Source: Escherichia phage StefiGeyer_Bas88. From it: a stretch of 64,000 nucleotides of DNA. Shown here one piece after another: positions 51,171 to 64,000 of this stretch (positions are counted from its first letter, which is position 1; each line of letters opens with the position of its first letter). Location: sequence record PQ850628.1, one strand, 5' to 3'. Below the pieces are notes generated by a model. The model was given only the letters and a program-made list of their open reading frames with translations, made no database searches and had not been told where the DNA came from. Made by a program: the position numbers and the translations under genes.

Positions 51171-51356
51171 TTATTCTACTTCGAAGTGTTTGATCACACC
51201 AGTCAATACATCAGATTGGAACGTACCTACTAACTCTGCGCCTCGGAAGAAATTGACATTTGTTCCAAGTGTTTCAAAGCGTTCTGCTTGAATGTCCAGA
51301 GATTGAATATTCCCTTCTGAGTTTACTGTACGAAACATGATTGTGTATTTATTCAC
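51171..51356 (-). CDS. hypothetical protein
   Basis: 61-aa ORF, ATGA coupling with the upstream gene. Confidence 0.35.
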   Translation of the reverse strand: MNKYTIMFRTVNSEGNIQSLDIQAERFETLGTNVNFFRGAELVGTFQSDVLTGVIKHFEVE

Positions 51357-51595
51357 AGAGTTGTTACTCCCTTATCTTCTTGTGCAATTGCGATGATACG
51401 CTCAACACATTCCATTGAATATTTATCACCTCGTTTAAGGAAGGTGACAATTGCAGAGAACTGATTACCAATCATTCTCTTGTTTGTGATTCCAAACTCT
51501 TCACAGAGTTGGTTAATAGCTTTACGAGAACCAACAATCAGAGGTTCTTTTTGTTCGGTCATTCCACGACTGATCAAATCTTCGATAGACAACAT
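51353..51595 (-). CDS. hypothetical protein
   Basis: 80-aa ORF. Confidence 0.4.
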   Translation of the reverse strand: MLSIEDLISRGMTEQKEPLIVGSRKAINQLCEEFGITNKRMIGNQFSAIVTFLKRGDKYSMECVERIIAIAQEDKGVTTL

Positions 51596-60506: not shown

Positions 60507-60670
60507 AACTTCTCCTGTTTATCACATTGATTGGTCAGCCAGTTGTAAGCCCCTCTGTTGTTCTTGCTTAACTCACAAGATGCAAAAGAATAGGTTCTGA
60601 CAAACCCCACGGTGGCTAAGCAAATAAAGATTGCTGCCAATAAGAACTTAACTTTCAACTTATTATCCAT
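60505..60670 (-). CDS. small lipoprotein-like protein (54 aa, below ORF-track cutoff)
   Basis: ATG at 60670; MDNKLKVKFLLAAIFICLATVGFVRTYSFASC signal/lipobox-like; stop overlaps next ATG. Confidence 0.3.
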
Positions 60671-60688
60671 ACAACCTCTTCTTTGAAC

Positions 60689-60716
60689 TTAAAAAAGGAC
60701 TCTCCTAAGAGAGCCA
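60689..60716 (-). terminator. intrinsic terminator (minus strand)
   Basis: Minus-strand RNA GGCUCUC-UUAG-GAGAGUCC followed by UUUUUU. Confidence 0.6.
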
Positions 60717-60911
60717 AGCTTTAAGGCCAATTAAATAGATATCACCCAATATCTGTGGATAACCTGCTCTTAAAATATTCTATCCGACGGATGTTCGAGG
60801 ACTATTCCTCTCCCTAGCATCGGCCCCATACGGGTAAGATTAAATTAAGTTTAGGTTAGTTGAGCCAGAATAGCTCACATAGCCCTCTGATACTCACAAG
60901 GGCTATAGATG

Positions 60912-61163
60912 TTACTCTGTGGCTCCGTCAAAGCGAAGGATTGCTGTTGGAACAGGGATTACAACCATGTCAATCTCTAAACGGAAAAGATGTCCTGTAC
61001 TTAGCTGAACTGCTGTTACAGGTTTAGCGATACCACCAACAGATGCTGAGGGGATTCGAATAAAGAAATCCCCCGGATATTCCGTTGCACGAAATACATC
61101 TCCCGGTGACATATCCTTTACTTGGATAATTGATTCAGGAGGGGTTTTATTAGCAATTTGCAT
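60912..61163 (-). CDS. hypothetical protein, PGD-motif paralog family
   Basis: 83 aa; SIIQVKDMSPGDVF...GDFFIRI...VVIPVPTAI shared pattern with 62284-62550 and 62554-62808. Confidence 0.4.
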   Translation of the reverse strand: MQIANKTPPESIIQVKDMSPGDVFRATEYPGDFFIRIPSASVGGIAKPVTAVQLSTGHLFRLEIDMVVIPVPTAILRFDGATE

Positions 61164-61396
61164 TACAGACCTTTCTTAGCACGATCTTTGGCAGTTTTAC
61201 CAGTGCGGATACGATGGGAAACATTAACCAGCTCACCACCTTCGACGATGGTCACGCTTTTATTTTTCGCAATATCAAACACAGATTTCTCTGTGCCGCC
61301 CAGACGAATCTGGCGAGGTTCGCTGAAGGTTTGGGTTGATTTGGACTGGAACTGGAACGGCTGGCGGATGGCATCAATTGCGCTAACTTTAGACAT
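61163..61396 (-). CDS. hypothetical protein
   Basis: 77-aa basic ORF. Confidence 0.4.
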   Translation of the reverse strand: MSKVSAIDAIRQPFQFQSKSTQTFSEPRQIRLGGTEKSVFDIAKNKSVTIVEGGELVNVSHRIRTGKTAKDRAKKGL

Positions 61397-61424
61397 GTTT
61401 CTATTACCTTATATTAAAGAGAGA

Positions 61425-61838
61425 TTAAACAACGAATTGGAACGCTTCGTATCCAAACTTATAAGAGAAGTCGTGCTTAAACTTCACTACACGACCACGA
61501 TCACGGAAAGATTTCAGACGGCTGCTGAACCCAGCCATTGGCTCAGGGTCAATAGGACTACGAATCTTCATAGCTACAGAATGCAGCTTGAAGCGTTTAC
61601 CAGTGCTACAGGCCATCATCACATACTCCATACGAGTAGTCCAGATGTTGAGCACCATGCTTGTTTTCTCCGCTGACCAACCAGTCTTACGGGCGATTTC
61701 CTTATGGATGTTAAGCTCCAAAGGAAGAGGGAATTGCTTGTTGAATGAAGCCGGATAAAGCTTGACCAGAAGATCAATGTTTTCTTTATACGTGAGGTAG
61801 GCCAATTTCTTGCTTACGTTGGGGAATTTCCCAGACAT
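61425..61838 (-). CDS. ProQ/FinO-domain-like RNA-binding protein (putative)
   Basis: YPASFNKQFPLPLELNIHKEIARKTGWSAEKTSMVLNIWTTRMEY resembles ProQ N-terminal FPHCF...PLKIGIFQDL...LRSALRLYTSSWRYL. Confidence 0.45.
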   Translation of the reverse strand: MSGKFPNVSKKLAYLTYKENIDLLVKLYPASFNKQFPLPLELNIHKEIARKTGWSAEKTSMVLNIWTTRMEYVMMACSTGKRFKLHSVAMKIRSPIDPEPMAGFSSRLKSFRDRGRVVKFKHDFSYKFGYEAFQFVV

Positions 61839-62036
61839 TTTTGAAGCTCCAAAACAGCGCCGAAAAGAGAGGCGTCATAGTAGCTAAAGGGAGGAGAGAA
61901 GAGGGCTTATTTACTTGCCTTTTTCTGTCCGTTAATGTACCAGATAACTGAGCCATCAGGCTGTCGTTGACCGAAGCCTTTCAAGTTAACCATTTCTTCT
62001 TCAGAGTAGGCACGTTTTCTCACTGATTTTCTCCTG

Positions 62037-62294
62037 TCAATAGAAGGTGTGTGTAGAGTCGTCGTTCATAGATAACCAAACAAAGAAGACAATCACACAG
62101 AAAGCAATAATACCGAGAATTGCAAGGATTATAGTGTTAGCTAATGTGATATCTAACACGCTTTGCAGATACATAAAGAACTGTACGACACCACATATCA
62201 TTAGCACGACACCAACAACAATGAGGAGCCAATATGTGCAGAGAAGGGCTGCATCCAATAGTGACACATATTTTGGATGATCTTTACGTTTCAC
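62037..62294 (-). CDS. small membrane protein
   Basis: 85 aa with two hydrophobic helices. Confidence 0.4.
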   Translation of the reverse strand: MKRKDHPKYVSLLDAALLCTYWLLIVVGVVLMICGVVQFFMYLQSVLDITLANTIILAILGIIAFCVIVFFVWLSMNDDSTHTFY

Positions 62295-62553: not shown

Positions 62554-62808
62554 TTATTCCTTAATAATTGCTTCAGCTTTAATAGGAATAACAGCAACAT
62601 CTTTACGAGGCGCTGTCGCTCGGCCTGTGTTAAGACAGGCTACAAGTCTATGCTCGTCCGCACCCTTAATGCACAAGCGAGTGGAGAACTCTGTAGAGAG
62701 TAAGATGTATAAATCACCATCTTCACTGTTAGGGTACATGAAGCAATCCCCAAGTCGCAAAGCACTGAGAGGTATTGAATTTTTACCTGCTGGCATGTTA
62801 ACTTTCAT
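62554..62808 (-). CDS. hypothetical protein, PGD-motif paralog family
   Basis: 84 aa; SIPLSALRLGDCF...GDLYILL...VAVIPIKAEAI. Confidence 0.4.
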   Translation of the reverse strand: MKVNMPAGKNSIPLSALRLGDCFMYPNSEDGDLYILLSTEFSTRLCIKGADEHRLVACLNTGRATAPRKDVAVIPIKAEAIIKE

Positions 62809-63084
62809 TTAACCACCTTTAGTTATGGACCAATTTATGAGAGAACTCTCGGAAGAATGCTTTCATAAATAGGGGGAGGGGACGAATCCTCCCATATCCT
62901 ATTAATTAATGTTGCATGTAAGACCTAACAATCCGATGCTGTAGTGGATAGCGTAAAATGCTTACCGGCATTAAACCCAGCCCATGAGGGGCTTATGTGA
63001 TTAAAATGCTCAACATTGAGCGGTTAGTTGATAGGAGATCTGAAGTCCTATCTCAAAGGACTCTCGTAAGAATCCTTCACGATA

Positions 63085-63339
63085 TTACTTAGTAACAAAG
63101 ATTGTCACCTTATCCATTACCCAGCCTATCAACATAAGGAAAGGTAAGAAGAGGATAAAGATCAGCATAAAAGGCCAGAAGAATATCACCGTCCAAATAG
63201 AATATTCATCAGGCTTACCACTCCATGAGGAATGGAAGAAGTTGTAGAGTGTATTGGTTTTGAAGCACCATTTAACTACAATGGCTGCTAACCACCAACC
63301 AATAACATAAATCAGGAGGACATACGCTGCTGTAACCAT
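63085..63339 (-). CDS. small membrane protein
   Basis: 84 aa, two hydrophobic helices, Trp-rich. Confidence 0.4.
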   Translation of the reverse strand: MVTAAYVLLIYVIGWWLAAIVVKWCFKTNTLYNFFHSSWSGKPDEYSIWTVIFFWPFMLIFILFLPFLMLIGWVMDKVTIFVTK

Positions 63340-63894: not shown

Positions 63895-64000
63895 GATCCC
63901 TCCTGAAGCGCCTTACGGCGGCTATCTCGCCAAGCCATCCATAGGTAGGTTTTAAGTTCTTCTCTTTCTTCTTCGCTGAACAGAGGAGAAGTAAAGATAT
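63893..64000 (-). CDS. partial CDS (3' end only; gene continues beyond the window)
   Basis: Open frame to the window edge; stop overlaps the downstream ATG (ATGA). Confidence 0.3.

What the first reader, a model, noticed from the sequence alone, without database searches (positions are those of the whole stretch)
61425..61838. Phage-encoded ProQ/FinO-domain-like RNA chaperone candidate
The central segment resembles the ProQ/FinO N-terminal domain that binds structured sRNA 3' ends. A phage copy in the early region could manipulate host or phage RNA stability.
Basis: partly seen in the sequence, partly recalled or inferred. Interest (0 to 1): 0.5.

Follow-up and report, generated by a model that had tools for sequence, protein, structure and literature searches.

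The report
Phage FinO/ProQ-domain RNA-binding protein gene
The flagged gene really does encode a small FinO/ProQ-type RNA-binding domain protein in a phiEco32-related coliphage, but protein databases already label near-identical copies this way and its role in infection is untested.

Summary
Window 61425..61838 (minus strand) is a real 137-aa gene. It has a GGAG ribosome-binding site and dN/dS of about 0.08 across nine orthologues.

**Family assignment.** It is a genuine single-domain FinO/ProQ-family protein:
- Pfam ProQ just passes its cut-off (27.2 vs 27 bits).
- All 40 aligned relatives hit that model.
- The family profile finds only solved FinO-domain structures (ProQ 2.6e-15, RocC, FinO, Lpp1663, NMB1681).
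- An AlphaFold model (pLDDT 91) matches only those folds.

**Conserved and lost residues.** The Tyr/Arg pocket that binds an RNA 3' end (Y72, R82) and the helix N-cap serine (S55) are conserved. The arginine stripe that contacts the RNA duplex in ProQ and RocC is absent (A56, S60, N64).

**Genomic setting.** The gene is an accessory cassette of about 460 nt. It lies between homologues of phi32_93 and phi32_94 in the leftward "early" block of ECBP2/SU7-like phages. phiEco32 and 4E8 lack it.

**Likely function.** It probably clamps the 3' hairpin-tail ends of RNAs and changes their stability. This is inferred, not shown.

**Novelty.** UniProt already calls the 98%-identical SU7 orthologue a "ProQ/FinO domain-containing protein", and a review notes phage-borne family members.

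The parts
61425..61838 (-). CDS (137 aa plus stop) encoding a minimal FinO/ProQ-domain protein; pI 10.0, 16 kDa
   Evidence: ORF list and translation; Pfam ProQ; PHROG 18901 at 1.7e-62; dN/dS about 0.08
61847..61850 (-). Shine-Dalgarno GGAG, 8 nt upstream of the ATG
   Evidence: Read from the sequence; SU7 record annotates an RBS at the same place
61509..61811 (-). FinO domain core, residues about 10-110: helices 10-27, 44-52, 56-66 and 70-79, beta-hairpin 81-95, helix 98-110
   Evidence: AlphaFold2 model with pLDDT 91.1 and pTM 0.85; Foldseek PDB hits; profile alignment to ProQ and RocC
61623..61625 (-). Tyr72 codon, equivalent to ProQ Y70 / RocC Y87 in the pocket that binds the RNA 3' nucleotide
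   Evidence: Invariant in 40/40 family members; role taken from PMC9674577 and PMC10168233
61593..61595 (-). [quoted passage not shown]
   Evidence: Invariant in 40/40; role taken from PMC9674577 and PMC10168233
61674..61676 (-). Ser55 codon, equivalent to the RocC S70 / ProQ S53 N-cap of the duplex-binding helix; it sits 17 residues before the Tyr, as in ProQ and RocC
   Evidence: Column holds S/T/D in 33/40 members; role taken from PMC9674577
61647..61673 (-). Helix H3 face, residues 56-64. A56, S60 and N64 replace ProQ K54/R58/R62 (S60 aligns with RocC R75, A56 with RocC K71), so the basic stripe is lost
   Evidence: Alignment columns; only 6/40 family members keep Arg at the R58 position
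61710..61712 (-). Asn43 codon at the beta-turn position that is Gly in ProQ (G37), RocC (G52) and 35/40 family members
61560..61568 (-). Three-residue basic insertion (K91-I92-R93) in the beta-hairpin, seen only in the two kuravirus-type rows of the alignment (the query and P0001)
   Evidence: Alignment A1; pLDDT dips to about 80-87 here
61428..61508 (-). C-terminal extension, residues 111-137, including an extra basic helix 114-128 with the motif F..F..FG..AF shared by about 25/40 relatives
61397..61857 (.). Cassette-sized indel relative to phiEco32 and 4E8, which carry only 59-67 nt here (a strong hairpin)
   Evidence: blastn breakpoints; alignments; hairpin fold in phiEco32 of -17.8 kcal/mol, z = -3.0
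61163..61396 (-). Downstream neighbour: phi32_93 homologue (92% aa identity), function unknown
61907..62023 (-). Upstream neighbour: phi32_94 homologue (66% aa identity), function unknown

Best explanation
The ORF encodes a minimal, highly basic, single-domain member of the FinO/ProQ family of RNA-binding proteins. It is carried as an accessory gene in the leftward, presumably sigma70-transcribed, early block of an ECBP2/SU7-like (Gordonclarkvirinae, Suseptimavirus-type) virulent coliphage. Shown here: family membership by sequence profile and by predicted fold; conservation of the Tyr72/Arg82 pocket and the Ser55 helix N-cap; purifying selection; and cassette-like presence or absence among related phages. 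Inferred: like RocC, FinO and ProQ, it docks the 3'-hydroxyl end of an RNA that ends in a hairpin plus a short pyrimidine tail (an intrinsic terminator) into the Tyr/Arg pocket. That would shield the RNA from 3' exonucleases and polyadenylation-dependent decay, and/or help it pair with an antisense partner. This lineage encodes a gp79 homologue, which in phiEco32 shuts off host and early-phage sigma70 transcription. The most economical biological role is therefore to prolong or tune the life of phage early or middle transcripts, or of a phage or host small RNA, after shut-off. Because the basic stripe on helix H3 is missing, duplex recognition probably differs from that of ProQ and RocC. It may rely instead on the invariant Arg69, the basic beta-hairpin insertion and the basic C-terminal helices.
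For: Sequence family: Pfam ProQ 27.2 bits vs 27. 45 representative homologues were found in 1.8 billion proteins, and all 40 aligned ones hit PF04352. The family profile hits only the FinO-domain structures 5nb9, 7rgu/t/s, 1dvo, 6s10 and 3mw6, at E from 2.6e-15 to 1.2e-06.
Fold: AlphaFold2 pLDDT 91.1, pTM 0.85. The Foldseek PDB top 26 hits are all FinO-domain structures, after which E jumps to above 0.6. In BFVD the hits include the SU7 orthologue and 7-11 G0X555, both named 'ProQ/FinO domain-containing protein'.
Residues: Y72, R82, R69 and W66 are invariant, and S55 sits at the N-cap. Y70 and R80 are essential for all ProQ-RNA binding (PMC10168233), and Y87/R97 bind the 3' nucleotide in the RocC-RNA crystal structure (PMC9674577).
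Gene properties: pI 10.0 with 24 K+R against 11 D+E. dN/dS is about 0.08.
Context: the gene lies between phi32_93 and phi32_94 homologues, and a gp79 homologue sits at 51356-51595. The early block is assigned by position (PMC4281155, PMC9965538). gp79-mediated shut-off is described in PMC12276001.
Annotation elsewhere: homologues in Erwinia, Hafnia, Aeromonas and Shewanella phages are already annotated as proQ, RNA chaperone or sRNA-binding protein.
Against: The three H3 residues that contact the RNA duplex in ProQ (K54, R58, R62; R58A abolishes binding of all seven RNAs tested, PMC10168233) are A56, S60 and N64 here. Only 6/40 relatives keep Arg at the R58 position.
The near-universal beta-turn Gly is Asn43.
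Alone, the query only just reaches the Pfam threshold, and a single-sequence PDB search finds nothing.
No partner RNA was found. Rfam gave no hit in the window. The hairpins next to the gene fold no better than shuffled sequence.
No RNA-binding, expression or phenotype data exist for this protein or, in the literature searched, for any virulent-phage FinO-domain protein.
Confidence: 0.6

Rival explanations
1. Host-ProQ competitor or decoy. The phage protein keeps the 3'-end pocket and occupies the terminators of host ProQ ligands (sRNAs, type I antitoxin RNAs, mRNA 3' UTRs). That would displace ProQ and rewire host post-transcriptional control, or keep labile antitoxin RNAs alive after host transcription shut-off. 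Its main job would not be to serve phage transcripts.
For: It has the same conserved pocket as ProQ. The host is E. coli, which has ProQ. ProQ binds many RNAs from toxin-antitoxin loci and prophages (PMC9977716). The phage encodes a gp79 shut-off factor homologue (PMC12276001).
Against: No data support it. The loss of the H3 basic stripe argues that its specificity or affinity differs from ProQ's. The gene is absent from most kuravirus-like phages that infect the same host: 21 of 93 records cover the region, and 20 Escherichia records carry the protein. It is therefore not needed for infecting ProQ-containing E. coli.
Confidence: 0.15
2. Repurposed FinO fold. The domain is retained as a scaffold but no longer binds terminator RNA. 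Instead it binds another ligand (protein, DNA or a different RNA feature) through its basic C-terminal helices and beta-hairpin insertion.
For: The positions equivalent to R58, K54 and R62 are uncharged, and the Gly37-equivalent is Asn. There is an extra conserved C-terminal helix and a clade-specific insertion.
Against: The pocket Tyr and Arg are invariant across 40 divergent relatives, as are the W66 and R69 that line it. Such conservation is hard to explain without the 3'-end-binding function. In RocC the N-cap uses backbone amides, so phosphate contacts do not strictly need the Arg (PMC9674577).
Confidence: 0.15
3. Dedicated co-factor of one antisense or small RNA (FinO/FinP, FopA/Inc or RocC/RocR style) encoded elsewhere in the phage genome, controlling one specific phage gene.
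For: Small single-domain FinO proteins on mobile elements typically have one or two RNA partners (PMC9977716, PMC9674577). Structured intergenic regions with terminator-like hairpins lie nearby, at 60665-60920 and 62805-63090.
Against: No conserved antisense promoter-terminator unit was identified. The plus-strand hairpin at 61819-61834 and the promoter-like site at 61388-61415 are at chance level. Rfam found nothing. The window ends at 64000, so the rest of the early region was not examined.
Confidence: 0.1

Closest known systems
Legionella pneumophila RocC FinO domain (PDB 7RGT/7RGU)
   Same: It is the best structural match (Foldseek E = 1.7e-04, probability 1.0, target-normalised TM up to 0.71). 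The profile E-value is 2e-12. It shares the Tyr87/Arg97 pocket (Y72/R82), the Ser70 N-cap (S55) and an Arg in the 'TRR' stretch before the Tyr (R69).
   Different: RocC has Arg75, Lys71 and Lys73 on the N-cap helix, and R75D costs more than 100-fold in affinity; here the residues are S60, A56 and K58. RocC is a 230-aa chromosomal protein with a long C-terminal region and a known partner, RocR. This protein is 137 aa, phage-borne and has no known partner.
E. coli ProQ N-terminal FinO domain (PDB 5NB9)
   Same: It is the best sequence-profile match (E = 2.6e-15, covering ProQ residues about 4-113). It has the same FP..F / PL.IG / W(Y)T...Y / R.DL.G signature.
   Different: ProQ has a linker and a Tudor-like C-terminal domain, which are absent here. 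ProQ K54/R58/R62 are not conserved, and G37 is replaced by N43. This protein is not a ProQ orthologue.
Neisseria meningitidis minimal ProQ (NMB1681, PDB 3MW6) and plasmid FinO/FopA
   Same: They share the 'FinO domain only' architecture with short N- and C-terminal helices. They are carried on, or derived from, mobile elements (PMC9977716, PMC7272453). They are structural hits.
   Different: Sequence similarity is low (15-25% identity in the structural alignments). Only one weak plasmid hit was found by tblastn, so at BLAST level this is a phage-specific clade.
Phage FinO-like proteins: Salmonella phage 7-11 gp122, Erwinia phiEa21-4 gp115 (annotated proQ in phage Pistou), Aeromonas LAh phages, Shewanella KASIA_p031
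   Same: They are direct homologues at 31-41% identity and belong to the same Pfam family. KASIA_p031 was likewise noted in an early region with no FinP-like partner (PMC8541194).
   Different: Several relatives sit beside NAD-salvage genes (Prs, NAMPT), which the window lacks. 7-11 gp122 has an extra C-terminal domain of about 100 aa. None has been characterised experimentally in the literature searched.

Membership tests
FinO/ProQ domain family (Pfam PF04352) | Sequence-profile match above the curated threshold | tested here: met
   27.2 bits against a gathering score of 27, which is marginal on its own. All 40 relatives match, best 1.7e-20. The family profile against the PDB hits only FinO-domain chains, at E from 2.6e-15 to 1.2e-06.
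FinO/ProQ domain family (Pfam PF04352) | FinO-domain fold (helical core plus beta-hairpin) | tested here: met
   AlphaFold2 pLDDT 91.1. The Foldseek PDB top 26 hits are all RocC, NMB1681, FinO or Lpp1663 at probability 1.00. This is a predicted structure, not an experimental one.
FinO/ProQ domain family (Pfam PF04352) | Conserved Tyr and Arg forming the 3'-nucleotide pocket (ProQ Y70/R80; RocC Y87/R97) | tested here: met
   Y72 and R82 are invariant in 40/40 members.
FinO/ProQ domain family (Pfam PF04352) | N-cap Ser/Thr at the start of the duplex-binding helix (RocC S70) | tested here: met
   S55 lies 17 residues before the Tyr, as in ProQ and RocC. The column holds S/T/D in 33/40 members.
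FinO/ProQ domain family (Pfam PF04352) | Conserved Arg/Lys on that helix (RocC R75 / ProQ R58; about 80% Arg in the family per PMC9674577) | tested here: not met
   It is S60 in the query, and only 6/40 relatives have Arg. The positions equivalent to ProQ K54 and R62 are A56 and N64.
FinO/ProQ domain family (Pfam PF04352) | Near-invariant beta-turn Gly (RocC G52 / ProQ G37) | tested here: not met
   It is N43 in the query and its close orthologues, and Gly in 35/40 relatives. From general knowledge, Asn is the commonest non-Gly residue in such turns, so the turn may be preserved.
FinO/ProQ domain family (Pfam PF04352) | Binds hairpin plus 3'-OH single-stranded tail RNAs (intrinsic terminators) | not testable with these tools
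   Needs EMSA, ITC or CLIP.
Enterobacterial ProQ (orthologue) | Linker plus Tudor-like C-terminal domain after the FinO domain | tested here: not met
   The protein is only 137 aa. After the FinO core there is one extra helix, and no further Pfam domain is found.
FinO/FinP-type dedicated pair | A cognate cis-antisense or small RNA partner | tested here: inconclusive
   Rfam found no family. Local hairpins and promoter-like sites are at chance level. The remainder of the early region lies outside the window.

The most novel reading that the evidence does not exclude
Virulent phages of Gammaproteobacteria carry their own clade of FinO-domain proteins. The clade has kept the RNA 3'-end pocket but discarded the duplex-gripping arginine stripe. 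Such a protein would act as a generic '3'-end cap' during host takeover. It could protect phage transcripts after sigma70 shut-off, or block host ProQ, poly(A) polymerase or 3' exonucleases. In many relatives the gene is linked to NAD-salvage (Prs-NAMPT) genes, and the protein might take part in a counter-defence programme.
Probability: 0.15. Interest if true: 0.6.

Novelty: new member of a known kind. Interest (0 to 1): 0.3.

Why it matters
FinO/ProQ proteins are one of the three major sRNA-associated RNA-binding protein families in Gram-negative bacteria. In the literature searched, none encoded by a virulent phage has been studied experimentally. This one sits in E. coli phages that are easy to handle: BASEL phages Bas86 and Bas87 carry copies more than 98% identical. 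Its natural presence and absence among otherwise collinear relatives (ECBP2/SU7 type versus phiEco32 type) offers a ready-made comparison. If it binds RNA 3' ends, it would be a tractable model for how a lytic phage manipulates RNA stability after shutting off host transcription. It would also be a natural variant for asking how much of the FinO domain's duplex-binding surface is dispensable. As an identification, however, it is a routine domain assignment that automated databases already carry.

Tried and rejected
**Searches that returned little or nothing**
- A single-sequence phmmer search against the PDB found nothing relevant. Only the family profile worked.
- The word-indexed homologue search returned one cluster only. 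The exhaustive representative search was needed.
- The search for related loci with the alignment failed because no stretch was conserved enough. With the single protein it found only the ECBP2 contig in IMG/VR.
- NCBIfam gave only sub-threshold L31 noise.
- Rfam at gathering threshold gave no RNA family in the whole window.

**Ideas tested and dropped**
- Cis-antisense RNA covering the gene (plus-strand promoter-like site 61388-61415 and hairpin 61819-61834): rejected as unsupported. Promoter-like sites are fewer than in shuffles (5 vs 11.8). The hairpin folds no better than shuffled sequence (z = -0.28).
- Terminator or attenuator directly upstream of the gene (61845-61885): no better than shuffles (z = -0.39).
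- A phage-sigma (gp36) promoter tAATGTAtA near the gene: none. The nearest one-mismatch site is at 63111-63119, and overall counts are at chance.
- NAD-salvage linkage in this phage: the window has no prs, NAMPT or terC.
- A second FinO-like gene in the window, or one in phiEco32 (40-77.5 kb) or the fetched 4E8 stretch: none at E <= 10 with the family HMM.
- Neighbouring ORFs as functional clues: all are PHROGs of unknown function with no Pfam hit.

Full report
**1. Observation**

The coordinates 61425..61838 correspond exactly to a minus-strand ORF of 137 codons plus stop. A GGAG Shine-Dalgarno lies at 61847-61850, 8 nt from the ATG. The window is a phiEco32-related coliphage. The 1.8-kb neighbourhood is 98.7% identical to Escherichia virus TH43 and 90-95% identical to NC-B, ECBP2, Bas87, SU7 and EK010, which are Gordonclarkvirinae of the Kuravirus/Suseptimavirus type. 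GenBank records annotate the same ORF as 'hypothetical protein'. Across nine orthologues, mean dN is 0.017 and mean dS is 0.216, a ratio of about 0.08. Residues 3-87 vary at only one position. It is therefore a real, constrained protein-coding gene.

**2. What it is**

Sequence evidence:
- On its own, the protein just reaches the Pfam ProQ/FINO threshold (27.2 vs 27 bits, residues 18-87). It belongs to PHROG 18901, of unknown function.
- An exhaustive HMMER scan of 1.84 billion representative proteins found 45 relatives.
- An alignment of 40 of them (A1) shows the classical signature P..F...(P)PL.IG(I)...(S/T)......W(T).R.EY......R.DL.G.
- All 40 match PF04352.
- The A1 profile finds every solved FinO-domain structure at E <= 1.2e-06 (the only other listed chain scores E = 0.98). 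These are E. coli ProQ NTD (2.6e-15), RocC (about 2e-12), FinO (9.3e-11), Lpp1663 (1e-09) and NMB1681 (1.2e-06).

Structural evidence:
- An AlphaFold2 model built on A1 is confident (pLDDT 91.1, pTM 0.85).
- Foldseek against the PDB returns 26 FinO-domain chains at probability 1.00 (target-normalised TM 0.48-0.71). After these, the E-value jumps to above 0.6.
- In the viral structure library, the top hits are the SU7 orthologue and phage 7-11 G0X555. UniProt already names both 'ProQ/FinO domain-containing protein'.

**3. Anatomy relative to characterised members**

I used the gap-free register between the N-cap Ser and the pocket Tyr, which is 17 residues in ProQ, RocC and the query.

| Query residue | Equivalent in ProQ / RocC | Conservation in the 40-member family |
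|---|---|---|
| Y72 | Y70 / Y87 | invariant |
| R82 | R80 / R97 | invariant |
| W66 | Y64 / F81 | invariant |
| R69 | S67 / R84 | invariant |
| S55 | N-cap S53 / S70 | S/T/D in 33/40 |
| A56, S60, N64 | ProQ K54, R58, R62 (S60 = RocC R75; A56 = RocC K71) | Arg at the R58 position in only 6/40 |
| N43 | G37 / G52 | Gly in 35/40 |

In the RocC-RNA crystal structure, the Tyr and Arg hold the phosphate of the 3'-terminal nucleotide, and binding requires a 3'-OH (PMC9674577). In ProQ, Y70, R80 and R58 are essential for binding all seven RNAs tested (PMC10168233).

The differences are clear. The basic stripe on helix H3 that faces the RNA duplex is absent in the query. The beta-turn Gly is replaced by Asn43. 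The beta-hairpin carries a three-residue insertion (K91-I92-R93). An additional conserved C-terminal helix spans residues 114-128. The protein is nevertheless very basic: pI 10.0, with 24 K+R against 11 D+E. There is no ProQ-type linker or Tudor-like domain. It is a 'minimal' FinO-domain protein of the NMB1681/FopA type, not a ProQ orthologue.

**4. Genomic setting**

All genes from about 48.6 kb to the end of the window run leftward. The FinO-like gene lies between homologues of phi32_93 (92% aa identity) and phi32_94 (66%). A homologue of the shut-off factor gp79 is at 51356-51595.

Published descriptions place this right-hand, leftward-transcribed block in the early class, transcribed by host sigma70 holoenzyme. 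gp79 shuts that transcription off in the middle phase (PMC4281155, PMC9965538, PMC12276001). 'Early' is thus an inference from position. No gp36-type promoter lies near the gene, and no above-chance sigma70 site does either.

The gene is a cassette. blastn breakpoints at 61396 and 61858 show that phiEco32 and 4E8 have only 59-67 nt there. In phiEco32 those bases form a strong hairpin (-17.8 kcal/mol, z = -3.0), and 4E8 has an annotated terminator. Only 21 of 93 related records cover the region. Only 20 Escherichia phage records encode the protein. The family HMM finds no other copy in the window, in phiEco32 40-77.5 kb or in the fetched 4E8 stretch. All neighbouring ORFs are of unknown function.

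**5. Relatives**

tblastn finds homologues at 31-41% identity in several phage groups:
- Salmonella phage 7-11 and its relatives;
- Erwinia, Salmonella, Hafnia and Enterobacter phages of the phiEa21-4 type (Ounavirinae);
- Aeromonas LAh-type phages;
- Shewanella phage KASIA.

Some of these are already annotated 'proQ: RNA chaperone', 'sRNA-binding protein' or 'ProQ/FINO family protein'. Only one weak plasmid hit exists.

The literature already states that FinO/ProQ homologues occur on bacteriophages (PMC9977716). It also noted KASIA_p031 as an early-region FinO-like gene without a FinP-like partner (PMC8541194). I found no experimental study of a virulent-phage FinO protein.

**6. Mechanism**

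Shown: the fold, the pocket and the selective constraint.

Inferred: the protein binds RNA 3' ends that terminate in a hairpin plus a short tail. It thereby alters their stability (protection from 3' exonucleases or poly(A)-dependent decay, as reported for ProQ in PMC12086684) or their pairing. In a phage that turns off sigma70 transcription, stabilising already-made early transcripts or a regulatory RNA is the most economical role.

The missing H3 arginines mean that duplex recognition must differ or be weaker than in ProQ and RocC. This lowers my confidence in canonical binding to about 0.6.

The rival explanations are:
- a competitor for host ProQ ligands;
- a repurposed fold that no longer binds terminator RNA;
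- a dedicated chaperone for one antisense or small RNA.

No partner RNA could be identified.

**7. Verdict**

The functional suggestion is reasonable but untested. Novelty is low to moderate. This is another member of a well-known family, in a phage clade that automated resources already label, although GenBank phage records call it hypothetical. The points that add some interest:
- the clade-wide loss of the duplex-binding arginine;
- the clean presence/absence polymorphism among collinear E. coli phages;
- the recurrent linkage of relatives to NAD-salvage genes.

Noticed in passing
L005 205-1518; L014/L015 8001-11197; L016 976-3963; L003 1-2962; L002 2983-6351: Outside the kuravirus group, FinO-like homologues repeatedly sit next to NAD-salvage genes (PRPP synthetase and NAMPT/NadV), sometimes with TerC/TerD. 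I saw this in 5 of the 6 contexts examined, including 98-kb phage-like contigs, Erwinia phage Pistou and Salmonella phage 7-11. The window phage has none of these genes. Whether this reflects inherited synteny or a functional link is unknown.
   Followed up: partly
window 61397-61857 vs L006 22989-23047 and L004 4093-4159: phiEco32 and 4E8 carry a strong hairpin (GCGTAGGGAATTCCCTCTACGC; -17.8 kcal/mol, z = -3.0) in the slot where the window has the FinO-like gene. The first roughly 12 codons of the gene (…TCTGGGAAATTCCCCAACGTAAGC…) align with that hairpin. The gene's 5' end may therefore overlie a relic of it, or the hairpin may be what a deletion left behind.
   Followed up: partly
window 62805-63090 (minus strand) and 60665-60920: These are two long intergenic spacers in the leftward gene block. 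Each holds several stable hairpins and terminator-like sites (62945-63090: -41.8 kcal/mol, z = -3.1; 62805-62950: z = -2.0; terminator-like sites at 60698-60715 and 62874-62893). They could be transcription-unit boundaries or small RNAs, and they are candidate ligands for a 3'-end-binding protein.
   Followed up: partly
L002 2983-3687 (7-11 gp122) and P0012, P0014, P0018, P0027, P0030: A subset of relatives (227-250 aa) carries an extra conserved C-terminal domain of about 100 aa (motif …GN-HPFRDG…HTS.VV…) with no Pfam match. By fold, phage 7-11 also appears to encode a second FinO-like protein (G0X575), and phage GAP52 encodes one too (K4F7Y7).
   Followed up: no
window 62037-62294 (minus strand): This 85-aa ORF has two predicted hydrophobic stretches. 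It is annotated 'holin' in phage E20-1 but 'hypothetical' elsewhere. It has only a weak DUF7847 hit and no PHROG.
   Followed up: no
window 51356-51595 (minus strand): This is a homologue (80% identity) of phiEco32 gp79, the factor that displaces sigma70 region 4 and shuts off host and early transcription (PMC12276001).
   Followed up: partly
window 24908, 34298, 34369, 40462: These are exact matches to the phiEco32 gp36-sigma promoter element TAATGTATA. They are plausibly the middle and late promoters of this phage. None lies in the 58-64 kb region.
   Followed up: no
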